NCBI RefSeq assembly: GCF_965152275.1
Contig: NC_134234.1
Location: 39,330,920 to 39,394,919, forward strand
Reading direction: 5' to 3'
DNA from: Natator depressus
Taxonomy: Eukaryota
Length of the DNA: 64,000 bases
Positions 6,186 through 62,092 of the stretch are shown here, piece by piece (the stretch's first letter is position 1; each line of letters starts with the position of its first letter). The position numbers were made by a program, and so were the translations under genes. The notes under the pieces were generated by a model. It searched no databases. It worked only from the letters and a program-made list of their open reading frames with translations, and was not told the DNA's origin.

Positions 6186-6207
6186 GGGGGCTTACCTGGG
6201 GGACCTC

Positions 6208-6786: not shown

Positions 6787-6899
6787 CTCCTAGAGCTGTC
6801 GGTGGACGCCCCAGTAGTCCTGCCCCTACACTGGGACCTCATTGCACAGGACGGCGTGCGGCTTCTCCACCCTGACCTGCAGTCACTGCACCTGATGGC

Positions 6900-7930
6900 A
6901 TGGAGGCTCTGTGGCTAAACGCCCTGCAGAGCCAGTGCTCCCTTCCTGTGCAGCAGATTCTGCTTGGCACTGGAAAGCCCTCTACCAGGGCAGCCTATAT
7001 GGCCAAGTGGAAAAGATTCTCGTGTTGGTGTGAACCCCGACAGGTGCAGCCAGGCCCCGGTGCAGGCCATTCTGGAGTACCTCCTGCACCTCAAGCAGCA
7101 AGGGCTAGCCCCGTCCTCACTCAGAGTGCACCTGGCGGCTATCTCCGCCTTCCATCCAGGGTTCTCGGGGGGCTTGGTGTTTTCCCAACCAATGGTGGGG
7201 CAGTTCCTTAAAGGGTTGGAGAGGGTGTTCCCATACTCCCGCCCCCCAGTCCCTCCATGGAACCTTAATCTGGTCTTTTCTAAACTCATGGGACCCCCTT
7301 TCGAGCCCCTCACTACCTGTTCTCTCCTCCACCTTTCCTGGAAGGTGGCGTTTCTGGTTGCCATTACCTCAGCTAGAAGGGTGTCCAAACTGAGGGCCCT
7401 CACCTCTGAGCCACCATACACAGTATTTCACAAGGACAAGGTGCAACTCCAGCCGCACCCCAAGTTCCTCCCTAAGGTGGTGTCCCAATTCCATCTGGGC
7501 CAGGACATTTGTCTGCCGGTGTTCTTCCCGAAACCCCATACGGACCCGCGTCACCGCAGCTTGCACACCTTGGATGTGCGTCGAGCGCTGGCGTTCTATT
7601 TGGAGTGCACCAAGCCCTTTTGCAAATCCACGCAGCTGTTTGTGGCTGTGGCCAAGAGGTTAAAAGGCCTTCCAGTGTCGGCGCAGCAGATTTAGTCTTG
7701 GATTACAAGCTGCATCCTGGCGTGTTATGAGCTCGCAGGTGTTCCAGCCCCGGCGGTTACAGCCCACTTGACCAAGACGCAGGCGACTTCCACGGCGTTC
7801 CTAGCACAGGTCCCGATCCAGGAGATCTGCAGAGCAGCCACGTGGTCCTCAGTGCACACCTTCACGGCCCACTATGCGGTCAACCAGCAGGCCAGAGAGG
7901 ACGCGGCAGTTGGCAGAGCGGTCCTCCAAG
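6900..7930 (+). pseudogene. DIRS copy 1 tyrosine recombinase (phage-integrase-like), frameshifted into 3 pieces.
   Basis: The N-terminal SAM-like domain reads MAKWKRFSCWC...ILEYLLHLKQQGLAPSSLRVHLAAISAFH. The C-terminal catalytic region at 7700-7930 reads ...QATSTAFLAQVPIQEICRAATWSSVHTFTAHYAV, which places the catalytic Tyr in HxxxHY context. Confidence 0.65.
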
Positions 7931-8321: not shown

Positions 8322-10300
8322 TTTCTCCAACAAATCAAACTAACCAAGAGTAAAACAAAAAAAACCCACCAACCACCTTGTACAAGCAACTACATAACAA
8401 ACTAGATAAAATCCCCTCCTAGTAACTGGAGAAATTAATGCTAAAGTAGGGAGCAACAACACTGGCAGGGAAGTAAATATGGGGAAACAAGGCCTTGGGG
8501 AAACAAATTAAAATGATTAAATGTTTGCTGATTTTTGTGGAATGAATGATCTGGTCATTGGAGGAACCATCTTCCCTCACCATACTATTCATAAAATAAC
8601 TTGAAGGTCAGCAGATCACAGAACAGGAAACCAAATTACATTATACCAACAAAACAAGGAACCAAACCACATTACAATTCTGCACAAATGTAATAGAACT
8701 TCAGAAGATGTAGGTAGCAGGAATGGGACAGGTGTGAGAATGGACCACACACTAACTAAATTGAGAATAAAAATAAAACCAAAGAATAGATCTGAACAGC
8801 AGAGACACCACATTATAAGGTCACCCAACTAAAATGCAGCAAGACTTTAGAATTGCTCTAGCAAATAGATACCAGGTGCTTGAAGATGAGACAATAGAAA
8901 GCAAATGGAAACAGGTAAAGGATACTTTCACTAAAACATGTAAAGAAATGCTGGGATTCAGGAAGAAACATCACAATGAAAGGATATATGAGAGGAAAGA
9001 TGCAAAATTAAACTGAAACAAAAACACAGACACACTGACTCCAGGAAGAATATGCAGTAAAGAACAAAGAGGACAAAATAGTGTTAGGAAAGGCAAATGA
9101 AACTTTGTAGACGAAATAGCAAGAGATGCACAAACTGCTGCAGCACACAATGACATGAAGACACTGTACAACATCATTAAACAGTTATCAGGAAGAATGT
9201 TCCAAGTAAGATAATTACATATTATAAAGAATAGGAGTACTTGTGGCACCTTGGAGACTAACCAATTTATTTGAGCATAAGCTTTCGTGAGCTACAGCTC
9301 ACTTCATCGGATATATGCATCCGATGAAGTGAGCTGTAGCTCACGAAAGCTTATGCTCAGATAAATTGGTTAGTCTCTAAGGTGCCACAAGTACTCCTTT
9401 TCTTTTTGCAAATACAGACTAACACGGCTGTTACTCTGAAACCTGATATTATAAAGAATAAAGAAAGCGATAGATTCAAGGTAAGAAGAAGAATAGGCAG
9501 GATTCAGACAGGAGAGATCATGTATAGATCAAATAGTAATCCTACATAGCATCATAGAACTTGTGATCTAATGACAGAAGTTAGAGGACCTTGACTTTGC
9601 AGATGACATTAACTTGCTATCCCATTCTCATAGAGACATGAGTGCCAAAACAAATGATTTACAGGCCTATCCACAAGTAGTAGGATTGAAAATCAACAGT
9701 GTAAAAACTTAGTCATGAGAATCAACACACAACAAGAAACACCAGTTGCATTTTCTGGGGCCGACCTAGATGAAATCCGATATATCACATACCTTGTCAG
9801 CATTTTAAGTACAACAGATGGAATAGAGGAAGACATTAAAACCAGAATAGTGAAAGCAAGATGTATTGTTGTAACTACAGTCGATCTGGAGAAACAGAAA
9901 TCTTACGCTCCAACTAAACTTCAAATATTTAACCATTATAAAATCAGTCTTGCTACATGGTGTTGAAACTTGGAGACTTATGAAAAACTTTACTATCTAA
10001 ACTCTGTCTTCATCAACAGCTGCCTTAGACAAATCCTCAATATTAGATGGGCAGAAAAAATCACAAGCAACAAACTCTGAAGGAGGATGAAACAGAAGCC
10101 AGTAGGACTGGAAATTACAGAACAAAAATGGAGATGGCTAGGACATTCATGAAGGGAAAGACCCAATAACATAACAAGATAGGCATTGAACTGGAACCCC
10201 CAGGGCAGGAGGCAGTGAGTTAGAACCACAACAGAAGCAGAATTGAAACCTATCTGAATAAAGTGAAAAGAAGCAAAGACTGCCACAGGAGACTAGCAAA
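8322..10300 (+). mobile_element. RTE/L2-like LINE, continuation. It covers the rest of the EN domain and the RT C-terminal region, and itself carries a hairpin insertion at 9240-9420.
   Basis: It resumes exactly with ..SPTNQ...FY.QL...LDKIP...LVTGEINAKVG...GETN. Further on come HKITWRSADHRTGNQID and a 3' RT tail (..LRQILNIRWAEKITSNKL..LGHS). Confidence 0.6.
9240..9420. repeat. Hairpin (palindromic) PLE-terminal-repeat element, inserted in the RTE LINE.
   Basis: The palindrome is near-perfect, with centre ...catcggatatatgcatccgatg..., and carries the family tail cagactaacacggctg..actctgaaac. Confidence 0.7.
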
Positions 10301-22649: not shown

Positions 22650-24290
22650 CATTTTGTGACAAAGGGAGAAAAGTGTACAACACAAACCAACGTGAGGACA
22701 GCAGTGGCAGCTCCAGCAAAACACAGAAGCCAAAAATATTACAAAACTTATTTCAACCAGGCTTTACATGGAGCAGGTCCAGCGATGCACCAAGGCCTCA
22801 GTGTGGCAAAGTACTGTCAAACAACAGTATGCAGCCATGGAAGCTACACTGACATCTTAAAGCAAGCTAGCCTACCTTAATATATAAATTTGTAGAGTTT
22901 TTTTGAGAGAAAGCTCAATGAGTTAACAGGACAAAAAGCATTGTGGATATGTACAGCACTGTCACCATGAATGCTACAGAGGCTTCTTACCATGTGGCTT
23001 TGTGCATTGCCAAAGCGGTTAAACCAGACAACATAAGTGAGAAACTACTTCCAGCTGCAATGGATATATGCACAGTGATTATAGGAGAGAAAGCAGCATC
23101 ACACCTAGATGTGATCGTACTTTCTAACGATAGTTTCACCCCATATTGCAGAGATGGTCACTGATGTAAAAAAGCAGCTCCTAGAAAGTCTTTGTCAGAG
23201 CCCATATTATTCAGTTCAGATTGATGAGTCTATCGAGCTATCAAATGCTACCCAGCTACTCATGCATATTTGTTTTGCTACAGCAACGAATTAAAAGAGG
23301 AATTTCTGTTTTGCCATTCATTTCCAACACAAGCAACTGGTGAAGAGCTTTTTAATCTATTAAATATTTTTGTTCAAGGCACAGGCCTTGATTGGGGACT
23401 TTTTGGAATTTGTAGCAATGGAGCACAGTCTGTGGCAGGACAGCATAGCAGGCTTGTGACAAAGGTACAAGCATGCCCACAGCAACCTAGAATCATTGTA
23501 TGATCCACAGATAGGCATTGGATGCTAAGAAGATGGCAGAGGAGCTCAGCAATGTTCTTTCAGTTGCAGTAAAAAATTGTAAACTTTATAAAGTCGCACC
23601 AGATTAATTCAAGGGGTTTTGCCGTTTTGTGCAAAGAGATGGAGGCAAACTTCACACAGTTGTTACATGCAGAAGTTTGTTGGCTGTCCAGGAGATATCT
23701 TTGTTGTCATATCTGGCTGAGATATTCAAGCGACTGAATTCTCTGAATGTGTCACTTCAGGCACAAGATGCAAATGTTTTAATTGCTAATGTTCCAATAG
23801 CAGCATTCATTAACAAACTTGAACTGTGGTCTTCATGTGTACAGCAGGGATCTGTTTCCATATTTTCAACATGGAGGACATTGCGCAACAGTGCGATCTG
23901 TCAGTTGACAGTATCCAAGATGTAATTGTTTAGCACTTAAGGGATCTGTAGGAGCAGTTTCGTGAATACTTTCCTGAAGTGGGCAAAGACAAATGTAATC
24001 AATAGATCAGGAACTCATTCAACTTTAAGCCAAACCCCACAAATATGCTGTTTTCAAAAGAAGAGGAAAACATTATCAACCTGTCAGGCAACAAGGAACT
24101 GCAGCACAAATTTTCACAAATGAAAAGCTTTTGGTTATCAGTGGGATCTGAATTTTATGAGTTAACACACCAGTCTTTTAAAGGACTCATTCCTTTTTCA
24201 TCCCTCTATGTGTGTGAGTCAGGCTTCTCAGCATTAACCACAATCATAACAAAAACAACAAGGAGTCCAGAGGCACCTTAAAGACTAACA
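22650..24290 (+). mobile_element. Decayed hAT (Charlie/Buster-like) DNA transposon, transposase remnant.
   Basis: The ORF fragments read ASYHVALCIAKAVKPDNISEKLLPAAMDICTVIIGEKAASHLDVIVLSNDSF and KSFWLSV..EFYELT...LIPFSSLYVCESGFSALTTIITKTTRS. The second is the hAT C-terminal dimerisation motif. Multiple stops show it is non-functional. Confidence 0.6.
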
Positions 24291-24480
24291 GATTTATTTG
24301 AGCATAAGCTTTCATGGGTAAAAATCTCTCTTCTTCAGAAGCATGGGGTGAAAGTTACAGATGCAGACATAGTGAGGTGTTTACCCACAAAAGCTTATGC
24401 TCAAATAAATCTGTCAGTCTTTAAGGTGCCACCGGACTCCTTGTTGTTTTTGTGGATACAGACTAACACGGCTATCCCCT
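24258..24480. repeat. Hairpin PLE-terminal-repeat element with an approximately 75-bp loop.
   Basis: The arms cttaaagactaacagatttatttgagcataagctttcatgggt and acccacaaaagcttatgctcaaataaatctgtcagtctttaaggtgccac are inverted copies, and the element ends cagactaacacggct. Confidence 0.6.
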
Positions 24481-25077
24481 GATACTTGAAATCATAACAC
24501 AGAATCACTCCCAGCTTTCTATTGAAGATGACTTACATCTCTTCTTTTCTACACTCCAACCCCGAATTCTACTACTTTGTATGGTGAGGAAACAAACACA
24601 CTCCTCCCCCTGAAAAGATAGGACTGATGGATATTATACTGAATTAACATATCATTGTTTGGTGTCCTGTTCCCTAAAATGTTTGAAGTTTTATTTTCAT
24701 TGCGTCCATTTGTATTTTAAAATTAACACTTCTGAAATTCATATGGATCTATAATTGATCAAATACCTTCTATCCTTTTATTCATTTTTTGCAACACACA
24801 GGATTTTCAATTTGTTATATTGTTTTAGTAAACTGTGGGGAGGCAGTTATTTTTTTTTATAGCTCAGGGAGGCTCACTATGACAAAGTTTGATAACCCCT
24901 GCCTTAACATATAACTGTGCCTCACCTAGCAAATACCTGTACCTGTAGGCTACTGTAGGGCAGTACTTCAATGCCTATTCAGTTAGGACTTTTGAGTCCC
25001 AACTTTCCTTTGAGGTACTGCTTGTCAGACTATCCCATAAGCAGGAATATGCAGAGGACACTCAAAGAAATAACCAA

Positions 25078-34079: not shown

Positions 34080-34390
34080 TTTGTGGCACCTTAGAGACTA
34101 ACAAATTTATTTGAGCATAAGCTTTCGTGAGCTAAGCTCACGAAAGCTAATGCTCAAATAAATTTCATAGAATATCAGGATTGGAAGAGACTTCAGGAGA
34201 TCTAGTCCAATCCCCTGCTCAAAGCAGGACCAATCCCTAAATGGCCCTCAAGAATTGAACTCACAACCCCGGGTTTGGCAGGCCAATGCTCAAACCACTG
34301 AGCTATCCCTCCCCAGTATTTGTTAGTCTCTAAAGGTGCCACAAGTACTCCTTTTCTTTTTGCGAATACAGACTAACACGGCTGCTACTC
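34080..34390. repeat. Hairpin PLE-terminal-repeat element carrying a SINE insertion.
   Basis: The arms lie at 34080-34150 and 34320-34390 and belong to the tggcaccttagagactaacaaatttatttgagcataagctttcgtgagct family. Confidence 0.6.
34150..34330 (-). mobile_element. tRNA-derived SINE (tortoise Pol III/SINE-like) with a CR1-like tail.
   Basis: The reverse complement reads ggggagggatagctcagtggtttgagcattggcctgccaaacccggggttgtgagttcaattcttgagggccatttagggattgg..gactagatctcctgaagtctcttccaatcctgatattctatg, a tRNA-like head with A and B boxes followed by a CR1 3' motif. Confidence 0.65.
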
Positions 34391-37300
34391 TGAAATCTGT
34401 GGTAATAGCTTGCCTCAAATTCAGTGTTCCCATGTTCGGATGGCTTCTCAGAAGCTGGTTGCCCCAAGAGATCCAGTTGTCAACATCCAGAGCATTAACA
34501 GTATTCCAATCTCTGGGCCTTCACATCAACTGCAAAAAAAAAAAAAAAAAAAATCCATACTAGCTGCAGTACAGGGAATAGACTTTGTAGGAGCTACTCT
34601 GGACTCCACAATAGCAAGAGCCTCCCTATCCAAGGAGAAATTCTCCACCCAGTCCAACCTAATTTCAAGATTACAGGCAGCCCACAAATAGTGAGGTCTT
34701 GTCAACAGGTCTGGGTCACATCAGCCTCCATGTATGTGACTACATGGAGATGCCTCCAGACATGGATAAGAACAGCATATACCCAAACACACAGAGCCTG
34801 TCCAAATGCATCAGAGTGCTTGGAAGGTGTTGGATTCTTAGATGGTGGAAAGACCCTTGGAGGGTCTGTGTTGGAGTCCCATTTTTGTATCCAGCACCTT
34901 CAAAAGCATAGCACATGCATCTGTTGGGATGGAGAGCCCACCTACCAATAGCCAGCACAGGGCCAATGGTCAGCACAGGAATCTGCATTCACTCTCACTA
35001 TACTGAAGCTAAGAGCAGTATGATATGTTTGCCAATGCTTCCTTCATGCCATACAAGGTCACTCAGGATAATGCCTGACAACAAGGCAGCAATGTATTAC
35101 TTCAGCTGCCAGTCCTTATGCACAGTGTCACTAAAGCTATGGAACTGGCGCATCTCCAATAGGGTAGAAATAGCAGCAGTCTATCTACCAGGCCTCCAGA
35201 ATATAATTGCAAATTTCCTGAGCAGGCACTTCTGGCAAGATCGCAAACAGGAGCACAAAACTAGCTTCCACAGCATCTGCCAGCCTGCGAAAGACCTCTT
35301 GGCTATCCGAACAATGGAAAATGTCATCTGTTCTACTCCAAGGGATTTTATGACCACAACTCTCTAGTGGTTTCCCTGATACGCATAAAGAAGATTCCAG
35401 AGTCATGGTGTTTGTCATCGGTAGCTACCGGTGTGGTGCTCCACTCTTGTTCGATGATAACAGTCGGCTGTGTGCGTGTTCCCTCTGTGTACTGCCCCAG
35501 CTCTGCACAGATAGCTAAACACAGCAGACCCTGAGAGAACCCCCCAAAACCACAGACTCTAATAAGGTATGAAGAAACCCAAGCTAGGTTTGTCAAATGA
35601 AGCACACTAATAGTTCCCTATAGACTCTACCGGGCATACTATGAATTTGTGCTCCCCGACAATGGCCACAGCTCAGACAGTGACAGGACACGCCACTGCC
35701 CGCTAGGCTGGACAAATATGTGCACTCCAGGGCCTACTTTTATACTGTTGCAGGACAGATTACTCATCATAGTTCAAACAAATCTATCCATCATGTTGTC
35801 CTTTTGACTCTGTCTTTAAGATGCACCTGCCTGTTCCTTGTTAGGTCTATGGAATGTCTTGCTGCCGTCTTGGCACAAGTTCCTCTCATTAGCTGTGTGT
35901 GTGTGTGCACGCGCGTGCCTCTAACAACCTTTTCTTGCCAACTTCTGTGAGTGGGACTGGCCTCTGGCTCACAGCCCAGCTTTGCTTATCATTGCCTGGA
36001 AGTACTTTGGTTCAGGCTTTACTTTGGTTGAGGCTTCACGCCTCAGACTGGGCCTCTGATACAAGAATATGTTTCAGGGCCTCTTTTTGCTACATGTTAA
36101 CTAACTGTACCATTAAATCCTCAAGACCCTTCTCAAGCTGCACTGTGAGGTATCCTCAGAGCACCCTGCTTGGTTGAGCCACGTGTGGTACACAAACCTC
36201 ATCTCTCTCTCTCAAAAGGTAACACCCCTCAGACTTTCTATCACAAAAGGCATATTGACACATGACTTAGGGCCCTCATCAGTCCTAACCCTTTCTCCTT
36301 GAATCTGAGAGCATGGAATTGCCCTTTTTGGTTAAAATTCAGTCAGTTCTCTTATCCAAGAGAAAGGCCAGTATTTGCAAGAGTCACCTCCAGAAGTGGA
36401 AGCGCTTCCAGTTTGGTGCTCCATCCCATCTTCTCTAGCCTTGGAGGTTCCACTTTCCAAGATCCTGGACTATGTATTAGAATAAAAAAAAAAAAAAAAA
36501 AGACTCTGATAGAGTTCATTTGAGACACCCTTCCTCTAACCTAGCCAGGACTTTGGTGTCTTTGGCCACACCCCAGCCACTGGAGTTCTTAAGGGCCTAT
36601 GCAACTTCCCCCCACCCCCACAGACCTCAGCCTGGTTTTAAACACAAAAAACCATCCCTTTGAAACAGTGGCAACCTGTTCCCCCCTCCACCTCTCCCTC
36701 AAAATTTTGATCTTAATCACCATTCCCCCAGCAAGGTGATCTGGGAGCACTCATGGTGGACCCACAGTACACCACTTTCTGCAAAGACAAGGTTATACTA
36801 TATCTCCATCATTGCTTCCTCCCAAAGGTCTCCTTGAAATCACTAACCAGGACATTTGCCTTCCAGTTTTCTGCACAAAACCTCATGCCTCCAGAAAGAA
36901 ATAAAGCTTTCATTCACTGGATGTCAGAAGGGCATTTGCTTTCTAGCTGGACAGAGCTTAAACCATTCCAGGCTACTTAAATTAGTTGCAGATAGGATGA
37001 AGGACTAACCAATTTCCACGCTAAGATTGTCGAAGTGGATTTCAGGTTGCATCTTGACCTGCTATGAAAATGCAACAGTGCAACCCCCCCCTCCCCCGAG
37101 TAGCAGCACATTCCACTAGTGTTCAGTCCACAGCTATAGCACTACTGAAGGACATTGTACTGCTACATAGTCTTCTATCCATATCTTTGCCAAGTTGCTG
37201 CTTCCAGAGACACCATATTCAAAGTGACCTGGACTTACCTCTTCGGCACCCCCCACCTCATTGAGTTACTGCTTGAGAGGCTCCTACAGTGGACATAAGG

Positions 37301-41686: not shown

Positions 41687-43374
41687 CTGAAATGAAAAGA
41701 TTTCTCTAGTAAGCAACTGTGACAGAGTACAACCCTGTATTAATACCCTCCACACTACTGTAATAATCATTGTACAAATTATGTCCTGTGAGGTATCATT
41801 TGAAAACTAATAACTCACTGTCAATATCACGATGAAATACATACAATATTACATGTAAAATTAGGAACAAATTGAAATCCTGACTGAAGTTTGTTTATCA
41901 GACAAGTCTGGGGAGGGGGTAAACCTGTTTCTCAAAGACAAAGGACAAGCCTCTTGCCAGGTGTAAATCTACAAAGTGGCCATTCTTTGACAAAGAAGGG
42001 AGGCTTGAACAAACATCTGCATCTTAGCAAACAGCAGCATGAAACCTGGTTCACCTCAAGACTCCAGCCTCACAGTGGGAATGAACTTCATTTAAGGGTA
42101 GCCTTAAGGAAAATGTATTTCAGGTTGGGAGCTTACAGAAGCAAAAGCATTGTGAGACACCCCAAGTTGCAAGGCAGGTGGCGGGACAGCCCCTCACTAG
42201 TCTGGATTGCAACCTGGAATGTGACAGCAATAAATCAAGCTCCATTTTTGTGGGATTTTTCTGGAACATAAAGATAATCTAACTTTTCTATCACATCTGG
42301 TATCTTTTTTTACGCAGCCAAACTTGAGGGATTTTTCAGGAAGTGAGAAGGCAGCTCATGAAAGCAAGGAGGGACCAAGAGAATCATCAACCCAAAGCAC
42401 CTAGAGAAAAGGTCTGATATAGCTTATTGGATAATGACAAATCCACACACAAGATTTGTTAGGTTTTGGCAATCAGCTTTTGCCCAGATTGTTAAAGTGG
42501 ATCTCATTATAACAAATTCCAATCTGGTGCTTAACTTAAATCATCAGTAACAACAGATTCCAAGGCACGGAACCATTATTCAAGTTTCATATACTTCTAG
42601 CAAATGCTACATACAGTAATTAATAAAGATGTATTATGTCTCAACTACCTGCATTCTTACAAAATCCACTGTTCTTTCTTCAGAAAAGAGATAAACATCC
42701 AGTTTTTTCTACAAACATTTATTAAAATTCGGTAAATTTGTAAGATACTTTGCTTAGCTACAATTGAACATCACCAAACATCTCCCCCTGCTGTAACCAA
42801 AAAAAATATGGTTCCAAATACTAGATGCAAGTGTAATTTTCTGTACAAGTATTCTGCATTACCAAAGTGTAGTTTAATATTGTAGTCATTACTAAATCTT
42901 GTCTAGTGTTCTTATGGCAGTTTCATAAATCACTTTTCAGGCTTCACATTTACGTAATGCAGATAACTATTCTATTATTTGGAATCGAGTCAAAATAGAC
43001 AACATTCTGGTACAGGACTTACTATCATAAAAGTCCTAGAGGAATCTTCTAGTGTCATCATTGTCTTGTCAAAGTTACTCCCATCACTAACAGGTGCTGA
43101 TTTAGGTCTTCTAGAAGGCTTTCCTGTTCAAATTATAAAAACTGTTAATTTTACATCATCTCAGCAGCCAAGAAGCAGTTTGGGTGTTATAAGCAAATAT
43201 AATGATCAGAATGATAAACTATACTGGATATCTGCATACCTCATGTGCAGTATTAACTTGAAAGCAGTATCTTCAGCTACTCAAGAAGAATTAATATCGA
43301 GTTAAGTGTGTTACCTCAGATATATTATTGCTTGCTATAGTAGCAAAGAGCTACAATTTAAGTTATGTTTCAGA

Positions 43375-44400
43375 GTAGCAGCCGTGTTAGTCTGTATTCA
43401 CAAAAAGAAAAGGAGTACTTGTGGCACCTTAGAGACTAACAAATTTATTTGAGCATAAGCTTTCATGAGCTACAGCTCACTTCATCGGATGCATTCAGTG
43501 GAAAATACAGTGGGGAGATTTATATACATAGAGAACACGAAACAATGGGTGTTAACATACAGACTGTAATGAGAGTGATCGCTTAAGGTGAGCTAATACT
43601 AGCAGGAGAGTGGGGGGGGAAAAAAACCTTTTGTAGTGATAATCAAGGTGGGCCATTTCCAGCAGTCCTTGCTTACAGACAGCCCCCCAACCTGAAACAA
43701 ATACTCACCAGCAACCACACACCACACAACAGAACCACTAACCCAGGAACCTACCCTTGCAACAAAGCCCGTTGCCAACTGTGCCCACATATCTATTCAG
43801 GGGACACCATCATAGGGCCTAATAACATCAGCCGCACTATCAGAGGCTCGTTCACCTGCACATCCACCAATGTGATATATGCCATCATGTGCCAGCAATG
43901 CCCCTCTGCCATGTACATTGGTCAAACTGGACAGTCTCTACGTAAAAGAATAAATGGACACAAAATCAGATGTCAAGAATTATAACATTCAAAAACCAGT
44001 CGGAGAACACTTCCATCTCTTTGGTCACTCAATTACAGACCTAAAAGTTGCAATTCTTCAACAAAAAAACTTCAAAAACAGACTCCAAGGAGAGACTGCT
44101 GAATTGGAATTAATTTGCAAACTGGATACAATTAACTTAGGCTTGAATAGAGACTGGGAGTGGATGGGTGTTCTCCCCCCCCCCCCCCCCCCGCTCTCCT
44201 GCTGGTAATAGCTCACCTTACCTGATCACTCTCGTTACAGTGTGTATGGTAACACCCATTGTTTCATGTTCTCTATGTATATAAATCCCCCCACTGTATT
44301 TTCCACTGCATGCATCTGATGAAGTGAGCTGTAGCTCACGAAAGCTTATGCTCAAATAAATTTTTGTTAGTCTCTAAGGTGCCACAAGTACTCCTTTTCA
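43375..44400 (+). mobile_element. 5'-truncated Penelope-like element (PLE): a GIY-YIG endonuclease remnant flanked by inverted terminal arms.
   Basis: The internal + strand frame at 43660-44130 reads ..TCTSTNVIYAIMCQQCPSAMYIGQTGQSLRKRINGHKSDVKNYNIQKPVGEHFHLFGH.., a GIY-YIG motif. Arms of about 120 bp at 43375-43495 and 44300-44400 are inverted copies of the ...tacttgtggcaccttagagactaacaaatttatttgagcataagcttt.gtgagctacagctcacttcatc... family. Confidence 0.55.
44166..44193. repeat. Poly-C tract inside the PLE remnant. Other homopolymers in the window: A at 34534-34553, A at 36483-36502, T at 10421-10445, T at 29400-29426.
   Basis: Read directly from the sequence. Confidence 0.8.
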
Positions 44401-46722
44401 ATTTAAGTTATGAAAGTCATAATAAATGTGCTATCTATACTATATTTTATTTATAGATTTCAAATTATAAAAAAGGCACCTTTTCAAAGCTCTAGGTGCC
44501 TAACTCATTTATTAATTATATAATGAAATAACAGCACTGAGATAATCATTCCAATAGGAACTCAGCCAGCAAAACACCTACAGAGAGATTCCTTTCTACC
44601 CCTTTTGATTTATAAGCAGCTCATCCTTGTCCTTTTCCAAAATAACCCTATAATGGTGTGTCCTTGCAGCATTCATGGAAGGTTTGGAACAAGTGAGGGG
44701 AACAATTTCCAGCATCTCGAAACCCTCACAGAGAACAGAAATGTCCTTCCAGCTACCCACTCTTTTATAGTGAGGGATGTCTAGTTTAGGCACTGCTGCA
44801 GACTGTAGCTGTGGCAACCTGGGACCAAAAGAAAGGCGATCTCTCAGGTACACCAGTCTCAAGACAGATAAGGCTTTATAGGTCATAAGCCAAGACTTAA
44901 ACTATACCCAAAGACCAACAAACACCCAGTGAAGATCCTAGCATCAGATGCTCCCAACAAAATGCCTCACTCAGTACGTGAGCCACACCATTCTGTACCA
45001 GCTTCATTCCTTGAATGATTTTAAAGATGTAACCCCATATAGAGTGCATAGCTATGCTTTCGTTAAGATAATTGCAAACAGCAGCAAGGTTCACATCTGA
45101 AAGATTGCAACCTCCTAGCCAGACGCAGATGTAAAAACAACAAAAAACCTGGACTACTGCTGTAATTAGAGAGTCAAACAGCAGCTGGGATCTGAAAAAA
45201 AAAAAAAATCACTCCTAAAATGCAAATCTTAGTAACTAATGGTGGATGGATTCCCTCAAATCCAAGGGACCAATTATCTCCAGCTGCTTCCCCATCACCT
45301 CGACTTTTATTCTGATCTGGATTGAGCAGCCAACTCACAGTCATTCATGGCCCAATCTTAGTTAGAAGCTGTCTGAGTCACATCATCCAAGCTGAAAATG
45401 ACAGATATACTTTTTGGTGTCATCAGCATACTGAAAACATACTTTATGCTTTCTTACTAACCCGCCTAATGGCCCCATATATATGTTGAACAGGAGGAGG
45501 TGACAGAATAGCACCCTGCAACATCCACCACTTTAGAGGTCTTCAGAAATTGCCTCCAACTACCTCTTTTGTGATTTCTCAGAGAGAAAATAATCACACC
45601 ACTGAAGAGCATCCTGTGCTCTCCCACTAGAGCCTGTAAGCACGTGAACACTACCTGGTGATCAAAACGGTATCCAAGGCAGTTTATCTAGCACAGATCA
45701 TTGACCATGCAGTCTCTGGGCCATACCCAGTTCTGTACCCAGAGTGGGAAGGAAATCAGGGACACACCTACATACTGAGAGAGCTGTGTCCACAACTTTC
45801 TCCACAATCTTATCCAAGACGATATTTATTATTTATCAGAGCATTAAGTCTGATTTTTAAACTTTCACATGCATTATATTTTTGGACTATTTAATACATG
45901 CATTGCCTGAGGGAAATAAAGATATTACCAATTATCAGTTGCTGCAAACAAACATTAAAACTGGCAATTTTCTTTTAAAGAGTTAATACGATTCTCCTAT
46001 TGAATAAATATTTATACCTTTTACTGGTGAATAACCTTTGCCATTCATCTTGCTACTCTTTTCTATTTGAGGAACTGGAGACAGAAACTGTTTTTTTTTA
46101 AATCTAGTTGATGGACTCTGAAAATACATAATAAAGATTTTATTTAGTTCAAGAATGGTTTATTGATAGCACTCATCAACACAGACCACTTGTCCATAAT
46201 TTTTATAGCAATGACTGTTAATTATACACTTTTAAAGTATATTGTGAAGGGAATAAAGACTGAGCTCCTCTTTCCCCTACTTCCTCACTATGCACAATCC
46301 CAAATTTTACCTTGGTGCAGTTAACCAGGGATAAGTATACTCCTCCTTACATTAGTTTAAGTTTTAGTAGTCTAACTGTGAAATCTTTCAGTGAAGACTG
46401 GCTGGTTTCACTGGATAATCTTTAGAGTGCAAAGGCACCAAAGTCAATTGCAACTGATTTCCCTATCGAACTCCAAAATAATTCAGTTTGAGAGAGCAAG
46501 ATCCTGGAGAGCATGGTACCTGCACACAGTGAAAATCCAGGTTTATAGGGGCAGTAGAAGTCAACAGCAGTGTACTGTCTTACAAACACCAATACACCCC
46601 CATTAATTTAAATGAAACATCCAACTGGTCTCTTCTGAATACCAGCTGAAAATATCAATGAGCCAAAACTCACTATACAGCTGCAAAAATCAGTTTAAAA
46701 TACCTCAAAACAAACAACTTAC

Positions 46723-52930: not shown

Positions 52931-54159
52931 ACTAAAACGTAGCATTAATTATGAATTAGGTAGAGCTGGTTGAAAATTTTTTTACAAATCGGAGTTTTGT
53001 CAGACAACACAAGTTTGTTGAACCCAAAATGTCTCGTGAAACCAGGTCAGATTCAACAAACTTTTGTCAAGTCACTAGTAGGGTTCTGATGGAACCCAGG
53101 TTCCCACGGTCCACAGCTTAAGAGCAGCCCTGTCACACCAGGGCTTCCAGCCTCCCTGTTGTGGAGCCAGGAAGCTCAAAGAACTGGGAGCCTGGAAACC
53201 CTGGGCTTAGGGCTTCCCGGATCCATGGCTCCCAGACAACCCCATCATCTGGATGGACATTCCTGGGCCAGAGACCCCAACGATTCCAGACTATCAGACC
53301 AGCAGACTCTCTGTGCAGCCTGATTCCCAAGTGGCCAGCCCTGGGAGATGCAGACCCTGGAAGTCCCAGAGCTGACTGACTACTGAGGTTATTAGCAGTC
53401 GTGAAAATGAAAAGAGTGTCAAATTTCAGTCAGCAGCTTCCAGACCCAGGGAGCATATTTTGTTTCAGAAATACCAAGTGTTGGTGTTCCCCCAAAAATT
53501 CAGGATTTCCAGTTCACAAGAAATTTTGATAAATTTGGTTCTATTCTGATTTGGAACAAAACCAAAATTTCAAAGTAGCAAAATTTCTTGCAAACCAGAA
53601 ATCTCAAATTTCAGCCCACTCTAGAACTAAGTTCTAAGGGCCTGATTCTCCCCTTACTTACAGTATTTTGACAACTATAGTTTTAGATTTCACTGACATT
53701 ATTCATAATTTGCACTAGTATAAATGAGTGGAGAATCAGACTCTAAAAATTGATATTTGGTATGAATCCCTTTCAGTAATTTCAATCTATAAATAAAGTG
53801 ATCTGAGCATCTAGTTAAAATTTTTTGAAATCATGTCACTGGCCACTTAAACATTTTTTCTAATGCAATTGTAAGAGCCCTGCATGGATACAAAATTTGT
53901 ATCCGCATCCAAGCCATAAAAACGAGTCACGGATATCCACAGATTTGCATGCTCTAGCTATTGCTCTGTGCTGAACGGTTGCAATAATCAGCAACAGTTT
54001 ATGACAGCACCCACTAAATTCACCTGACTGATAATTAACAGAAACTGCAAGTCAACACCAGTAATTTTTTCATTCTTCTCCATTATTTTGATTGCATGTT
54101 TTAAGAACACCTAGTGCTCAATCTACAGTGAAGTCTGTGTGTATATATTATTCTCTTAC

Positions 54160-55762
54160 CTCCTGTTTCTTCTTGTCCCACATTTGATTTGGTTTCATGC
54201 CTTGCATGACAGCCTGGCTTCTGTTTAGGTTTCAGTGAAGGAAAGAGTTTCATCATGAGGTCTGATGTGGGAGGTGCACTTGCATCACCATCTGTCACAC
54301 TCTGTTTGGGCAAATCATCTCCCTTCTTTATTGAAGCGACCTTCCTCTTTATTGTTTTATCTGGGGCAGCCATTTCACTTTTATTGTAATAGTCAGTTTG
54401 TGGAGGTACTTTAATGGTATCATTTTGGGGTACTTCATGCTGAATCTCATTTTCTTCAAGGTCAGTCCATGTTCTTTCATCATCAAACTCAACCTTATTC
54501 CTATTTGTACATGAAACACTTCTTTGAGATTCAGACACTTTGCTATTACTCTGATTTGGTAGCACATTGGATTCATCACTACTATAATCTTTGTCTGATA
54601 AGTCAAGATCAACATCCCTACTTTTGCTTTCTTTGCTGAGGTCTTTGACAGGTCCTGTGCAATCACAGAATGCTGGATTATCTTGTCTGATGCTCAAAAT
54701 GAACTTTTTAGCATCTTCATTTGAACATTTTACGGTAGTCTCAAGTTCCTCCTCAGACTCTGTAGTAATGACACGGCTTCCATCATCCTTATCTTCATTT
54801 ACATTCCATTCAGTACTTTTGAAAGTTGGAGATGCCGCAGTGGAAGAAGTCTGAAATATTTTACTATCTGTTTTATTGAATTGGTCCCTTAGTCTAATAG
54901 ATGCCCTCAAATCCAAGACTGTATGTGTAACTGCTCTGTCATTTTTATTTCCTTGTAAAATAATTTCTGCTTTTTTATTTTTATTTATAATATCTAGTGC
55001 ATTCATCTGCTGTGGCATTGCTTTGACAGGGGTAGATGACATTCTACGGCCTTTTGAAATTTGCTGATCTCGATCCAAGAACCTTTGTACAAATGAGGAA
55101 TTACTCGAGAAAGATACTTCATCAGCAGCCTGTTCTAGAAACAAAAATTCATCTAATTCTATGTTCTCTTTTTCCTTTTCTTTTTCCCAGTTTTCCAACT
55201 TATTTTGGAATGAAAGTTCAAAAGAATGTTCTGAATCTTTTACAGGGTAACTTGTAGAACCTTTGGAAAGAGAAAAAGCTGTGGACAGCTGAGGCTTTTC
55301 TGTATCTGAAAATTTGTCAGTAGGCCTGGCAAAATCCATTATGTTTTCCTTATTTTCTGATCCGAAAGAATCTTTGAACTGCCCATCAAGATTCTTCTCA
55401 GTCTGCAGTCTCGCTGTTGGTGGCGATATATTTTTTCCATTATGATTCTTGAGTACTATGGCCTTCTGAACAGGGAAGACAGAATCATTTGTTATTTTAG
55501 CAGGTCGGTTACATTTTTTAGACTGCACAGCAAAATTCTCAGAAACCTGTTCCTTGCTTAAAGGTGCAGTTTTCCGCTGTATTTGTGGTCTGTCCGCTTT
55601 AACAACGTTTCTGTCCTCCAAAGTAGTTTGCTGAGTCATCAGTTTGCTTTCTTTATACTTTGTTACTTTAGATTTGGCATTAGTGAACCTAGTTAAGCCT
55701 TCTCCCCGTTTCAGAAAGGGTCGTTTTGTCTGTAGTTTCTGAAAGGTTGACCTTCCTACTTC
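54160..55762 (-). CDS. CENPJ: CENPJ large exon (the roughly 1.6-kb exon, exon 7 in human). Translation: EVGRSTFQKLQTKRPFLKRGEGLTRFTNAKSK ... SNVGQEETG(G).
   Basis: The six-frame ORF at 54101..55822 (-) runs 573 aa. Acceptor tatttgaag is the reverse complement of forward 55763-55771. Donor CAGGAG|gtaaga is the reverse complement of forward 54154-54159. A single giant exon is the hallmark of CENPJ gene structure, and the S/T/K/E-rich low-complexity sequence fits. Confidence 0.75.
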
Positions 55763-56077
55763 CTTCAAATAAAATAAAATAAAATAAAAAAAAAAATCAA
55801 AGGACAACATTAAAACTTCCATTGTATATGTACAGACTTATCTAAGTAAGGCTTACTAATATGTAAAGTTACACAGTACCTGTCCCACTATAGTTTTAAG
55901 GAAGGTCAGAATCTTAAAAATAGAATAATTGTTTTTAAGAACTTGAATATTGCATATATAAAGTTGTAAGCTCTTCAGGGCAGGGATCTGTCTTCTCACA
56001 TGTTTGTAAAGTTTCTAATACATTTTGGGAAGGTATATAAATAACTGTAGTATTTATAATAATTAACCTCTTGCTCT

Positions 56078-60680: not shown

Positions 60681-61447
60681 ACTGTTTCTCACTGATAGAA
60701 TCTGAAGATAAACTGCTCTTCAAAGATCAGATGAATTCCTTGTCGTTTAACTTTTGTAGTAATTCACTCTTGTGTATGTGTAGAAACAAAAGAAAAATCA
60801 TCCAGGATAGAGCACTATCTCCACTGAGATTCTGGTACACAGGTGGTGGCAAGTAAGGCACAGTGTTTAAACTAGCTGGATGTCGACATCATTGACTCAG
60901 ATCTTCTGACTTTCGAGCATAGTCTCGAAGGGGGAGGGGAAAAAATGCATTATGCTTTGTATTTCCATTACAATATTGTTGTCTCTGCGAGGAGGAGACA
61001 GCAGTTCCAGAATTGGATTGGTCACATGTTCCTAGGGATAGGGGTCCAGGTACTTTTACACACATCTGGCCAATCTGTAGCCAAGTGTTTTTTTTCCTTC
61101 CCCTCCAGATGAAGCCTAAGGGTATTTCTGTGGGGTTGGGAAGAGTGAAAAAAGGGACTTAGGGTCAACAGTGATGAAGCAGGTTTTCTGAGACAGCTGA
61201 ACAGAGAGAAGAGAAAGGGAAATGTTTTGGGGGGAAAGTTTAAGATTCACATTTTTTAATTTTGTTTTTATGTTGTCGAGCTTTCACTATTTTTCTTTCT
61301 TTTCTATTTAGACTAAGTTCTCCAAAGCAAGGGCCCTATCATGCTACGTGTTTGTACAGCACCAAACACAACAAGAACCCAGTCCTGGTTGAGGTGTTTG
61401 GATGCTACTGTAATATGAATGTTGAGTAGTAGTTTTTAAAATGAACA

Positions 61448-61550
61448 GGAGTACTTATGGCACCTTAGAGACTAACAAATTTATTAGAGCATAAGATTTC
61501 GTGAGCTACAGCTCACTTCATCGGATGCATAGAATGGAACATATAGTAAG

Positions 61551-61601
<51 letters not shown>

Positions 61602-61930
61602 TAAGTTGGAAGTTACCATACAAACTGTGAGAGGCTTAATTAGTAACTTAATTAGTAACTTAATTAGTTAAGATGAGCTATTATCAGCAGGAGAAAGGAA
61701 AAAAAACTTGTCACAATTGTATGGTAACTTCCAATTGATCTGTATGTATGTATGTATGTATGTATGTGTGTGTATATATATCTTACTATATGTTCCATTC
61801 TATGCATCCGATGAAGTGAGCTGTAGCTCACAAAAGCTTATGTGCTAATAAATTTGTTAGTCTCTAAGGTGCTACAAGTATTCCTGTTCTTTTTGCAGAT
61901 ACAGACTAACACGGCTGCTACTCTGAAACC
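61448..61930. repeat. PLE-derived inverted-repeat element with internal microsatellites.
   Basis: Arms at 61448-61535 and 61795-61925 are inverted copies of the hairpin family. Inside are (ac)n at 61563-61600, three copies of attagtaactta, and (tatg)n at 61744-61778. Confidence 0.6.
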
Positions 61931-62092
61931 AGTTTTTAAAATGTTATTTTAAATAATGCAGTGTTTACCTGGGACTAATCCAGTAGTTTTGTGATAGTGT
62001 GTGAAAACAGTACTCAACATTTTAAGTAGAATATTAAAATTAAAGTGTTCAATTTCCTTAAAGTATACTGTATACTTTACTTCTCCACTTAC

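What the first reader, a model, noticed from the sequence alone, without database searches (positions are those of the whole stretch)
43375..44400. Hairpin-forming element family is Penelope-like: one copy retains a GIY-YIG endonuclease remnant
At least five loci carry the same approximately 120-bp arm in inverted pairs: 9240, 24258, 34080, 43375 and 61448. The longest copy encloses an internal + strand frame with a clear GIY-YIG motif (VIYAIMCQQC...YIGQTGQSLRKRINGHKSDV...HFHLFGH). This is the endonuclease found at the C-terminus of Penelope-like retroelements, which characteristically generate inverted terminal-repeat structures. So the short palindromes are PLE solo-terminal hairpins rather than DNA-transposon MITEs. 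They are potentially strong secondary-structure formers inside introns.
Basis: partly seen in the sequence, partly recalled or inferred. Interest (0 to 1): 0.55.

Follow-up and report, generated by a model that had tools for sequence, protein, structure and literature searches.

The report
Truncated Penelope-like retroelement hairpins, turtle
The five palindromic repeats in this turtle window are dead, head-to-head inverted fragments of a Penelope-like (Neptune-type) retrotransposon. One copy still carries the remnant of its GIY-YIG endonuclease, and this is an ordinary, already described kind of repeat.

Summary
Both the observation and the interpretation hold. The window is turtle DNA that includes the CENPJ gene.

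- **Repeat family.** A 20-mer from the arm occurs 9 times against 0 expected. A family profile finds exactly five loci, all inverted pairs with the 3' ends facing outward. Four have AT-rich target-site duplications of 10-14 bp.
- **Coding remnant.** The 1,031-bp copy at 43368-44398 is a 291-bp inverted fragment joined to a 743-bp sense fragment. The sense fragment encodes the last ~170 codons of an ORF, with one frameshift. It matches Pfam GIY-YIG above the curated cut-off. It has the PLE-specific cysteine pair between GIY and YIG, and the CX4CX2C linker motif found in Neptune/Nematis but not Penelope/Poseidon.
- **RT upstream.** The remnant is 90% identical to the C-terminus of a 463-aa protein with reverse transcriptase directly upstream. 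A loggerhead turtle locus shows the same RT-EN arrangement in genomic DNA.
- **Other PLE marks.** Each pair has one arm with a 38-50 nt "tail". Each arm carries a minimal hammerhead motif with helix II covariation, although Rfam does not detect it.

All of this matches published PLE anatomy. The MITE reading is rejected. Only two of the five loci are shown to be intronic. Novelty: already known. Interest is low.

The parts
43354..43367 (.). Left target-site duplication of copy D (CAATTTAAGTTATG, 79% AT)
   Evidence: Exact 14-nt direct repeat with 44399-44412
43368..43658 (-). Copy D, inverted 5'-truncated fragment: tail, complete region downstream of the ORF, and the last ~12 codons of the ORF (...DCWKWPTLIITTKGFFPPPLSC*)
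   Evidence: nhmmer profile positions 2-272 on the minus strand. The minus-strand ORF tail is read. The junction with the sense fragment is ambiguous by up to 6 nt (GTCCTT).
43368..43406 (-). 39-nt tail, present on this arm only (sense orientation TTTTTGTGAATACAGACTAACACGGCTGCTACTCTGAAA)
   Evidence: The sense arm of D stops at ...GTACTCCTTTTC (44398).
43453..43492 (-). Minimal hammerhead motif in the inverted arm (core CCGAUGA; one C-to-T change in helix II)
   Evidence: Fuzzy motif search; alignment
43656..44398 (+). Copy D, sense 5'-truncated fragment: ORF from ...VLAYRQPPNLKQ to its end, poly-C tract, downstream region without tail
   Evidence: tblastn with P0112 aa 282-449 at 43665-44169; nhmmer profile 1-239
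43657..44169 (+). Remnant of the linker (CX4CX2C) and GIY-YIG endonuclease, with a +1 frameshift from an extra A at 43961-43964. The RT is missing, so the copy is dead.
   Evidence: 90% identity to P0112 C-terminus; Pfam PF01541 24.0 bits against a cut-off of 22.6
44175..44192 (+). Poly-C tract (18 C) at the ORF end. The matching tract in the inverted arm is 8 G at 43613-43620.
44312..44351 (+). Minimal hammerhead motif in the sense arm: GCAU-CUGAUGA-A-GUGAGC-UGUA-GCUCAC-GAA-AGCU-U|AUGC
   Evidence: Not detected by Rfam.
44399..44412 (.). Right target-site duplication of copy D
9221..9460 (.). Locus A. TSD ATTATAAAGAATA at 9221-9233 and 9448-9460. Short antisense arm 9234-9314. Long sense arm 9315-9447, with tail at 9403-9441. 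Hammerhead motifs at 9275-9314 (-) and 9317-9356 (+).
   Evidence: RNA fold -165.6 kcal/mol, z = -27.
24242..24499 (.). Locus B, an older subfamily. TSD AATCATAACA at 24242-24251 and 24490-24499. Short antisense arm 24252-24361. Long sense arm 24362-24489.
   Evidence: Arms are 90% identical to each other but 72-84% to the other loci.
34081..34395 (.). Locus C. Short antisense arm 34081-34141. Sense arm 34127-34165 plus 34318-34395 (tail 34357-34395), interrupted by a nested 152-bp dispersed repeat at 34166-34317. The palindrome centre lies in the loop of hammerhead helix II. No TSD recognised.
61431..61943 (.). Locus E. TSD AGTTTTTAAAATG at 61431-61443 and 61931-61943. Short antisense arm 61444-61698. 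Long sense arm 61713-61930, with tail at 61890-61928. Hammerhead motifs at 61489-61528 (-) and 61804-61843 (+). Microsatellite expansions in both arms.

Best explanation
**What it is.** The five loci are dead insertions of one family of endonuclease-containing Penelope-like retroelements (PLEs) in a turtle genome. By its endonuclease linker motif the family is Neptune-type.

**How each insertion formed (inferred, except where marked).**
- The element's RT-EN protein cut AT-rich target DNA on both strands with a 10-14 bp stagger. That stagger became the target-site duplication.
- Reverse transcription was primed from the nicks and started at internal, sequence-specific sites near the 3' end of the element RNA.
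- The two complementary DNAs grew toward each other, stopped early (5' truncation) and were joined head to head. This gives an antisense arm on the left, a sense arm on the right, and both 3' ends facing the flanking duplications.
- The family has two alternative start sites about 40 nt apart. Each insertion used one of each, so one arm carries a 38-50 nt tail and the other does not.
- When both complementary DNAs stopped after 105-140 nt, the product is a ~215-240 bp near-perfect palindrome (loci A, B, C). When they ran further, the arms are longer (E). In D the sense arm reaches back into the ORF, so it keeps the linker and GIY-YIG coding region.
- The arms contain the family's minimal type-I hammerhead motif. 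Published work suggests this motif can cleave only as a dimer or with protein help.

**Shown here:** the anatomy, the homology, and the RT-EN linkage in relatives.

**Taken from published biochemistry on an Anolis PLE:** cleavage and extension of both strands, internal initiation at two sites, and preference for AT-rich targets.

**Inferred:** that the same steps produced these particular copies.
For: **Family and copy structure**
- The repeat is real and specific (9 matches against 0 expected). There are five loci, all inverted pairs.
- All 13 inverted pairs seen in the window and in turtle loci L001-L005 are head to head, with 3' ends outward. None is tail to tail.
- TSDs are 10, 13, 13 and 14 bp and 79-92% AT.
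- One long plus one short arm is found in 10 of 10 complete pairs. If ends were chosen independently this would have probability at most 0.001.
- The arms of a locus share subfamily-specific variants.
- The same sequence also occurs as solo 5'-truncated copies in Chrysemys locus L001. This is a retroelement hallmark.

**Coding evidence**
- GIY-YIG is above the Pfam cut-off.
- The cysteine pair between GIY and YIG and the CX4CX2C linker can be read directly in the translation.
- The remnant is 90% identical to P0112, which has RT upstream.
- P0112 aligns over 457 aa with the 881-aa ORF P0126 (RVT_1, DKG motif). The related 707-aa P0121 scores for both RVT_1 and GIY-YIG.
- RT and EN are contiguous in Caretta DNA, again in a head-to-head pair.
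- A whole-library search found 4,867 relatives at E <= 1e-10. Many are 700-1,050 aa long with this domain at the C-terminus.

**Hammerhead motif**
- The CYGAWGA and GAAA cores are conserved, with a bulged A, a 4-bp helix I and a palindromic AGCU.
- Helix II covaries between subfamilies: AU 11 / GC 7 with no unpaired cells, and CG 13 / UA 3. Overall 94% of cells pair, against 15-49% when partners are slid.

**Literature match**
- Inverted 5'-truncated copies and a one-sided 30-40 bp tail: PMC8557442.
- Cleavage and extension of both strands, two adjacent internal RT start sites that define the tail, AT-rich targets: PMC11167929.
- Minimal hammerheads in PLE repeats, with a long helix II and an unpaired 5' nucleotide; often two on opposite strands 100-700 bp apart; reported in turtle: PMC4209133.
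Against: - No full-length intact copy of exactly this family was recovered. The closest RT-bearing protein (P0112) is 5'-truncated, and the full-length ORFs compared are only ~44% identical.
- The RT was not placed on a PLE/TERT phylogeny, so the Neptune assignment rests on the EN linker motif alone.
- Rfam finds no hammerhead, even at E <= 10.
- In the young subfamily the core reads CCGAUGA in 5 of 6 arms in the window. Conserved core position U4 is therefore C, which makes catalytic activity doubtful.
- Locus C has no recognisable target-site duplication.
- The two-nick mechanism is transferred from one Anolis Poseidon element studied in vitro. It has not been shown for this family.
- An alternative, snap-back synthesis by a single complementary DNA, would also give head-to-head arms.
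Confidence: 0.9

Rival explanations
1. The short palindromes (loci A, B, C and similar ones elsewhere) are not random truncation products of the autonomous element. They are copies of a defined non-autonomous unit: roughly the last 105-140 nt of the element, from the hammerhead to the tail. This unit might be transcribed from a promoter in the terminal repeat, or produced when reverse transcription starts at the upstream of two repeat copies in one RNA. The PLE protein would mobilise it in trans.
For: - Inner (5') ends of arms and solo copies cluster at profile positions 130-171. That accounts for 21 of 39 arms, with only 2 shorter and 16 longer. Simple 5' truncation should give more of the shortest class.
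- The modal unit matches the minimal RNA template defined in vitro for the Anolis element, which runs from just upstream of the hammerhead cut site to past the RT start sites (PMC11167929).
- A 2026 preprint argues that animal hammerhead retrozymes are non-autonomous PLE derivatives (doi 10.64898/2026.07.22.740005).
- In Drosophila Penelope and in Chlamys the transcription start lies in the terminal repeat (PMC8557442).
Against: - The cluster is 40 nt wide, not a sharp boundary.
- Arms of intermediate and long length exist (E, D and several in L002-L005) and grade into ORF-containing copies.
- The sample is about 40 arms from loci partly chosen because they contain long copies.
- No transcript data were available.
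- The palindromic sequences at this position (ATGCAT and helix II) could instead favour joining of two complementary DNAs there.
Confidence: 0.2
2. The hairpins are miniature inverted-repeat elements (MITEs) of a cut-and-paste DNA transposon. On this reading the GIY-YIG frame in copy D is unrelated captured sequence.
For: The elements have terminal inverted repeats, are short, and are flanked by AT-rich direct repeats.
Against: - The arms make up essentially the whole element.
- The outer ends are systematically unequal by 38-50 nt.
- Duplication length varies from 10 to 14 bp.
- The same sequence occurs as one-armed, 5'-truncated copies.
- The arm is continuous with the 3' end of an RT-EN ORF, both in D and in other turtle loci.
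- No transposase was found among 4,867 relatives of the coding part.
Confidence: 0.02
3. The inverted pairs are artefacts of assembly, or arose after insertion by local inverted duplication of single-armed copies.
For: PLE structures are known to confuse short-read assemblies (PMC8557442).
Against: - The target-site duplications flank the whole pair, not each arm.
- The same architecture recurs in the loci drawn from three other assemblies (Chrysemys, Caretta, Chelonia).
- The arms have diverged by 3-13%, which a collapse or duplication artefact would not produce.
- The long/short rule holds in 10 of 10 pairs.
Confidence: 0.02

Closest known systems
Neptune-clade Penelope-like elements (EN+ PLEs of fishes, amphibians and reptiles; Arkhipova 2006; Craig et al. 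2021, PMC8557442)
   Same: - C-terminal GIY-YIG endonuclease with the CCHH cysteines between GIY and YIG.
- Extra CX2-5CxxC motif in the linker (here C-NKAR-C-QL-C).
- RT upstream in one ORF in relatives.
- 5' truncation, inverted copies, one-sided tail, variable TSD, and a hammerhead motif in the terminal repeat.
   Different: Nothing tested here differs. Clade placement by RT phylogeny was not done. Nematis shares the linker motif, but the papers read here report only Neptune and Poseidon in the vertebrates sampled (doi 10.64898/2026.07.22.740005).
PAc, the Poseidon PLE of Anolis carolinensis, characterised in vitro (Frangieh et al. 2024, PMC11167929)
   Same: - Order along the RNA: hammerhead, then two RT start sites that bracket a 30-40 nt tail in an AC-rich region. 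Here the tail contains ACAGACUAACACGG and can pair with an upstream GUUAGUCU.
- AT-rich target sites.
- Both DNA strands are used as primers, which predicts exactly the head-to-head pairs seen here.
   Different: - PAc belongs to the Penelope/Poseidon clade, which lacks the CX2-5CxxC linker.
- In PAc the ORF starts inside hammerhead stem II. Here the ATGs at that position are followed at once by stop codons.
- No biochemistry exists for the turtle family.
Minimal hammerhead ribozymes of PLE terminal repeats (Cervera and de la Pena 2014, PMC4209133)
   Same: - Type-I layout with a short helix I (4 bp) and a long helix II (6 bp) that has an unpaired nucleotide at its 5' end.
- No real helix III, only a 4-nt palindrome (AGCU) that could pair between two copies.
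- Often found as two motifs on opposite strands 100-700 bp apart.
- Reported in turtle.
   Different: The young subfamily in this window has C instead of U at core position 4 (CCGAUGA). Older subfamilies have the canonical CUGAUGA or CUGAAGA. Activity is untested.
MITEs / foldback DNA transposons
   Same: Short, palindromic, flanked by short direct repeats, and able to form a strong hairpin.
   Different: Unequal termini, variable duplication length, single-armed truncated relatives, and continuity with an RT-EN ORF. This is not a member.

Membership tests
Endonuclease-containing Penelope-like elements (EN+ PLE) | GIY-YIG endonuclease domain | tested here: met
   Pfam PF01541, 24.0 bits against a cut-off of 22.6, E = 4.7e-5, on the frameshift-repaired translation of 43650-44165. 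Relatives P0008 and P0110 also score above the cut-off.
Endonuclease-containing Penelope-like elements (EN+ PLE) | [quoted passage not shown] | tested here: met
   VIY-AIM-C-QQ-C-PSAM-YIG, followed by ...NGH... and ...HFHLFGH. Both cysteines and the I and G of YIG are invariant in the 8-sequence alignment A2.
Endonuclease-containing Penelope-like elements (EN+ PLE) | Reverse transcriptase N-terminal to the endonuclease in a single ORF | tested here: met
   This is not present in the window copy, which is truncated. It is present in same-family P0112 (90% identical over 168 aa; RVT_1 plus GIY-YIG) and contiguously in Caretta DNA at L002 9061-10341.
Endonuclease-containing Penelope-like elements (EN+ PLE) | PLE-type (telomerase-related) RT with the N-terminal DKG motif | tested here: inconclusive
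   The DKG motif (ADKGGA) is present in the full-length relatives P0121 and P0126, which are ~44% identical to P0112. P0112 itself lacks that region. No RT phylogeny was made. No solved structure matched.
Endonuclease-containing Penelope-like elements (EN+ PLE) | Insertion anatomy: 5' truncation, inverted or tandem partial copies, a 30-40 bp tail at one end only, TSD of variable length | tested here: met
   Five of five loci are head-to-head pairs. The tail is 38-50 nt and sits on one arm in 10 of 10 complete pairs. TSDs are 10-14 bp.
Endonuclease-containing Penelope-like elements (EN+ PLE) | Hammerhead ribozyme motif in the terminal repeat | tested here: inconclusive
   A motif with the published minimal-hammerhead layout is present and helix II covaries. 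However, Rfam gives no hit and core U4 is C in the young subfamily.
Neptune clade of PLEs | [quoted passage not shown] | tested here: met
   The translation reads P-C-NKAR-C-QL-C-PH at 43752-43784, and the motif is seen across alignment A2, with single-sequence substitutions at the first two cysteines. The feature is defined in PMC8557442.
Neptune clade of PLEs | Placement within Neptune on an RT phylogeny | not tested
   No reference PLE RT set (Repbase) was available to the tools.
Hammerhead ribozyme (type I) | Conserved catalytic core CUGANGA ... GAAA with a cleavable NUH site | tested here: inconclusive
   GAAA and the C3, G5 and A6 positions are invariant in alignment A3. G8 and A9 are each changed in one or two of the 18 sequences. 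Position 7 varies U/A, as the consensus allows. Position 4 is C in 11 of 18 sequences and U in 7. The site AGCU-U|A fits NUH.
Hammerhead ribozyme (type I) | Helices supported by covariation | tested here: met
   Helix II has two pairs with changes on both sides (AU/GC 11:7 and CG/UA 13:3), and 96% of its cells pair. Slid controls give 15-49%. Helix I is only 4 bp with no compensatory change. These counts reflect few independent events.
Hammerhead ribozyme (type I) | Match to the curated Rfam covariance models; self-cleavage | tested here: not met
   There is no Hammerhead family hit at the gathering threshold over the window, nor at E <= 10 over 43340-44420. Self-cleavage cannot be tested with these tools.
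MITE / cut-and-paste DNA transposon | Equal terminal inverted repeats, a fixed-length TSD, and a parent element encoding a transposase | tested here: not met
   The termini are unequal by 38-50 nt, TSDs are 10-14 bp, and the parent ORF is RT plus GIY-YIG.

The most novel reading that the evidence does not exclude
The evidence does not exclude that the short palindromes are a self-sustaining non-autonomous lineage. The unit would be a ~105-140 nt "hammerhead-to-tail" module whose 5' boundary marks a transcription start, or another defined RNA end. The strict one-long, one-short arm rule would then reflect an ordered two-strand reaction, in which the two nicks made by a dimeric RT-EN protein are obliged to use different RT start sites. 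A related open point is that head-to-head pairs look much more frequent in the window and in sea-turtle loci (12 of 18) than in emydid loci (1 of 11). This would mean that the outcome of PLE integration differs between subfamilies or hosts.
Probability: 0.2. Interest if true: 0.45.

Novelty: already known. Interest (0 to 1): 0.15.

Why it matters
For genome annotation this is routine. PLEs are abundant in non-avian reptiles (PMC4350176), and one tortoise assembly was masked for about 140,000 Penelope fragments covering 30 Mb (PMC11315351).

The practical points are modest:

- These palindromes should be labelled as PLE fragments, not as MITEs.
- They feed spurious or chimeric gene models. Several public turtle "proteins" are host exons fused to this endonuclease.
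- At least one "bacterial" GIY-YIG entry is almost certainly reptile DNA.
- Two copies sit 140 and 245 nt from CENPJ exons. They would form very stable hairpins in the pre-mRNA, which could matter for splicing, RNA editing or small-RNA production. Nothing here shows that they do.

The side observations bear on the still unresolved PLE integration mechanism. These are the strict long/short arm rule, the clustering of inner ends at the hammerhead, and the apparent lineage difference in hairpin frequency. All three could be tested genome-wide at little cost.

Tried and rejected
- **Rfam.** The scan of the whole window at gathering thresholds and the scan of 43340-44420 at E <= 10 gave no hammerhead or other credible RNA family, only chance-level miRNA and snoRNA matches on the poly-C/G tract.
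- **Solved structures.** A PDB sequence search with the EN remnant gave only noise, and a search with the 881-aa relative gave nothing.
- **First walk toward the RT.** A profile of the linker region returned only short fragments under 190 aa. The exhaustive representative search was needed.
- **P0110 rejected as evidence.** This 602-aa protein has an RVT_1 hit, but it is a chimeric gene model. Its N-terminal RT carries a LINE-like NYRPISLL motif and is separated from the PLE part by unrelated sequence.
- **Failed look-ups.** P0005, P0112 and P0006 could not be located on contigs.
- **Hammerhead cleavage as the cause of the clustered inner ends.** Rejected, because the predicted cut site lies 14-55 nt inside the arms.
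- **First hammerhead reading.** I first drew a helix III of GC-UUAU-GC with cleavage after C. That leaves no helix I. The alternative (AGCU palindrome, cleavage after U, helix I GCAU/AUGC) fits the published minimal motif and was adopted.
- **tRNA scan.** ARAGORN found no tRNA in the window, so the tRNA-like look of the repeat nested in locus C is unconfirmed.
- **Supplements.** Those of PMC4209133, which should show the turtle hammerhead family, are not held.
Full report
**What the window is.** The sequence is turtle nuclear DNA. A 573-codon minus-strand ORF at 54101-55822 is the large exon of CENPJ (CPAP). It is 90% identical to the Terrapene triunguis protein and matches the Pfam CPAP tubulin-binding region. 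tblastn with turtle and bird CENPJ proteins places 13 exons on the minus strand between 62168 and 38936. Every close relative of the coding remnant is from a turtle, and the next closest are from lizards and frogs.

**Checking the observation.**
- A 20-mer from the arm occurs nine times (up to 3 mismatches) against zero expected.
Every one is an inverted pair.
- Copy D (43368-44398) is flanked by a perfect 14-bp direct repeat. Its arms are 92-95% complementary.
- Loci A, B and E have AT-rich flanking repeats of 13, 10 and 13 bp. Locus C has none that I can see.
- The + strand frame in D is real but crosses one frameshift, an extra A at 43961-43964.
- The repaired 171-aa translation passes the Pfam GIY-YIG gathering threshold: 24.0 against 22.6 bits, E = 4.7e-5.

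**What the coding remnant belongs to.**
- The translation has the two features that Craig et al. (PMC8557442) give as diagnostic for PLE endonucleases. [quoted passage not shown] The second is the downstream R, H, E and N residues.
- It also has the CX2-5CxxC linker motif (C-NKAR-C-QL-C). That motif is present in Neptune and Nematis and absent from Penelope/Poseidon.
- The exhaustive profile search found 4,867 relatives at E <= 1e-10. Many are 700-1,050 aa long with this domain at the C-terminus.
- Of the seven relatives tested that are not chimeric gene models, one (P0126) scores for RVT_1 alone and P0198 only marginally. The other five score for RVT_1 upstream and GIY-YIG downstream, two of them below the GIY-YIG cut-off.
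- The key link is P0112. It is 90% identical to the window remnant over 168 aa. Its N-terminal 280 residues are RT motifs (ALYTNIPH, GTAMG, YIDD) plus thumb and linker. It aligns over 457 residues with the 881-aa ORF P0126, which also has the PLE DKG motif.
- In Caretta locus L002 the same RT-linker-EN string is contiguous in genomic DNA (9061-10341, minus strand). It lies head to head with a second, internally deleted copy.
- No relative encodes a transposase.

**Anatomy of the insertions.** The ten arms were aligned in sense orientation, defined as the strand that carries the ORF in D.
- Each locus has one arm ending at ...CAGACTAACACGGCTGCTACTCTGAAA(C). The other arm stops 38-50 nt earlier, near ...GTACTCCTTTTC.
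- In D the tail is on the antisense arm. In A, B, C and E it is on the sense arm.
- With six further turtle loci (Chrysemys, Caretta, Chelonia, Malaclemys) added, all 13 inverted pairs are head to head with the 3' ends outward.
- All 10 pairs with both outer ends intact have exactly one long and one short arm. Solo copies are long in 12 of 16 cases. Independent choice of ends would give this result with probability about 5e-5, and at most 1e-3.
- Arms within a locus share subfamily variants. Locus B is 72-84% identical to the others but 90% between its own arms. The two arms therefore arose in one event.
- Copy D consists of a 291-bp antisense fragment (tail, downstream region, last ~12 codons) and a 743-bp sense fragment that starts at ...VLAYRQPP. 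The junction at 43656-43661 is ambiguous by up to 6 nt.

**How this matches published PLE biology.**
- Craig et al. describe exactly this anatomy: heavy 5' truncation, an inverted 5'-truncated copy abutting the main copy, and a 30-40 bp tail at only one end.
- Frangieh et al. (PMC11167929) purified the Anolis Poseidon protein. They showed that it cleaves AT-rich DNA and extends both strands. They also showed that reverse transcription starts at two adjacent internal sites in an AC-rich stem-loop, and that the stretch between those sites is the tail.
- The turtle family fits this. Its duplications are 79-92% AT. Its tail is AC-rich (ACAGACUAACACGG) and can pair with GUUAGUCU about 40 nt upstream. 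Its arms point the way that priming from both nicks predicts.
- I therefore regard two-nick target-primed reverse transcription, with early termination and head-to-head joining, as the most likely origin. This step is inferred by analogy and was not shown for this family.

**The hammerhead motif.**
- Each arm contains GCAU-C(C/U)GA(U/A)GA-A-GUGAGC-UGUA-GCUCAC-GAA-AGCU-U|AUGC.
- This is the layout Cervera and de la Pena (PMC4209133) defined for minimal PLE hammerheads: a 4-5 bp helix I, a 6-8 bp helix II with an unpaired nucleotide at its 5' end, and no real helix III, only a short palindrome that could pair between two copies. They note such motifs in turtle, and often as two motifs on opposite strands 100-700 bp apart.
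- Across 18 distinct copies from several subfamilies, helix II keeps pairing through double changes (AU 11 / GC 7; CG 13 / UA 3). One subfamily accommodates an extra base as a bulge. 94% of cells pair, against 15-49% in slid controls. These counts represent only a few independent substitutions.
- Against activity: Rfam finds nothing. In the young subfamily the core is CCGAUGA. The single CUGAUGA in the window (D, sense arm) is probably a CpG decay product.
- Published minimal motifs cleave poorly and only as dimers or with protein, so function here is doubtful.

**Rival readings.**
- A MITE is excluded by the unequal termini, the variable duplication length, the one-armed truncated relatives and the RT-EN parent.
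- Assembly artefact or later duplication is excluded by duplications that flank the whole pair, 3-13% arm divergence, and recurrence in loci from three other assemblies.
- A more serious rival concerns only the short copies. Inner ends of arms and solos cluster at profile positions 130-171, the 5' edge of the hammerhead. That accounts for 21 of 39 arms, with only 2 shorter. Plain 5' truncation should not give this pattern.
- The cluster might mark a transcription start in the terminal repeat, with reverse transcription starting at the upstream repeat copy. It might be a stall at the protein-bound hammerhead. Or it might be preferential joining at the palindromes ATGCAT and helix II; the centre of locus C lies exactly in the helix II loop.
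- The cluster is not the predicted ribozyme cut site. I cannot separate these possibilities with 39 arms.

**The intron and hairpin claim.**
- Locus D lies in the CENPJ intron between exons 46120-45986 and 43124-43023, 245 nt from the latter.
- Locus E lies between exons 62168-62067 and 56187-56068, 140 nt from the former.
- Loci A, B and C lie beyond the last CENPJ exon, among other retroelement remains.
- As RNA, locus A folds into an almost perfect 80-bp stem (-165.6 kcal/mol, z = -27).
- Whether this affects CENPJ expression is unknown.

**Verdict.** The feature is an ordinary, previously described class of repeat. PLEs are abundant in reptiles (PMC4350176; about 140,000 fragments in a tortoise genome, PMC11315351). 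The inverted/tail anatomy, the endonuclease motifs and the hammerhead are all in the literature. Novelty: already known. Interest is low. The long/short rule and the clustering of inner ends are the only points worth a cheap genome-wide follow-up.

Noticed in passing
window 38936-62168, minus strand: The host gene is CENPJ (CPAP). Thirteen exons were mapped by tblastn, including the 1.6-kb large exon at 54158-55741. The exon set shows the window belongs to a turtle that is 90% identical in this protein to Terrapene, so probably not an emydid.
   Followed up: yes
window 2747-7695, 14517-16671 and 34915-35367: There are long + strand ORFs of another retroelement. ORF 4965-6497 hits RVT_1 at 57 bits with a YLDD motif, and ORF 6208-6786 has a weak RNase H-like hit. 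A degenerate second copy lies at 14.5-16.7 kb with clearly homologous ORFs, and a fragment lies at 34.9-35.4 kb. By eye the motifs look DIRS-like, but no recombinase domain was detected.
   Followed up: partly
window 34166-34317: A 152-bp dispersed repeat is nested in the long arm of PLE locus C, so it inserted after the PLE. It has four copies in Chrysemys locus L001 and one in Caretta L002. Its reverse complement looks tRNA-derived (GGGAGGGATAGCTCAGTGG...GGTTGTGAGTTCAATTC), but ARAGORN calls no tRNA.
   Followed up: partly
window loci A-E; L001 90986-91173; L002 7148-7407; L003 12780-12967; L004 15613-16701; L005 18039-18220: Every complete inverted pair has exactly one arm with the 38-50 nt tail and one without (10 of 10). 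Solo copies are long in 12 of 16 cases. This looks like an obligatory asymmetry of the integration reaction, not a free choice of start site.
   Followed up: partly
window and L001-L006, family profile positions 130-171: Inner (5') ends of arms and solo copies pile up at the 5' edge and helix II of the hammerhead motif (21 of 39, with only 2 shorter). This gives a modal unit of 105-140 nt. It does not coincide with the predicted ribozyme cut site.
   Followed up: partly
L001 and L006 (emydids) versus L002-L005 (sea turtles) and the window: Head-to-head pairs make up 1 of 11 insertions in the emydid loci, about 7 of 13 in the sea-turtle loci, and 5 of 5 in the window (Fisher p = 0.006 for window plus sea turtles against emydids). 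The sample is small, and the loci were partly chosen for containing long copies.
   Followed up: partly
L002 8632-8972; L003 10369-10645, 41504-41777 and 43516-43766: In the sea-turtle subfamily, a ~75-nt segment of the region downstream of the ORF (profile 16-89) is inverted, and sometimes duplicated, relative to its orientation in window copy D.
   Followed up: no
proteins P0001, P0006, P0010, P0026, P0096, P0113: Public gene models fuse this PLE endonuclease to host exons: trypsin, "copper uptake protein 1 isoform X3", CABLES1, and an MROH2B-like protein. Two "bacterial" entries are also 87-94% identical to the turtle element and are probably reptile DNA contamination: Listeria monocytogenes on a 345-bp contig, and Leadbetterella sp.
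   Followed up: no
window 43656-43668; L002 10461-10462; protein P0001: The sense fragment of copy D starts at ...VLAYRQPP (aa ~282 of P0112). An independent Caretta copy has an internal deletion that rejoins at RQPPNLKQ (aa 286). This may be a recurrent breakpoint or template-switch site.
   Followed up: no
window 61553-61598 and 61740-61780: Mirror-image microsatellite expansions, (AT)n(CA)n and (TGTA)n(TG)n(TA)n, sit at the same position in both arms of locus E. In other copies this position has a short TATGTATATA stretch.
   Followed up: no
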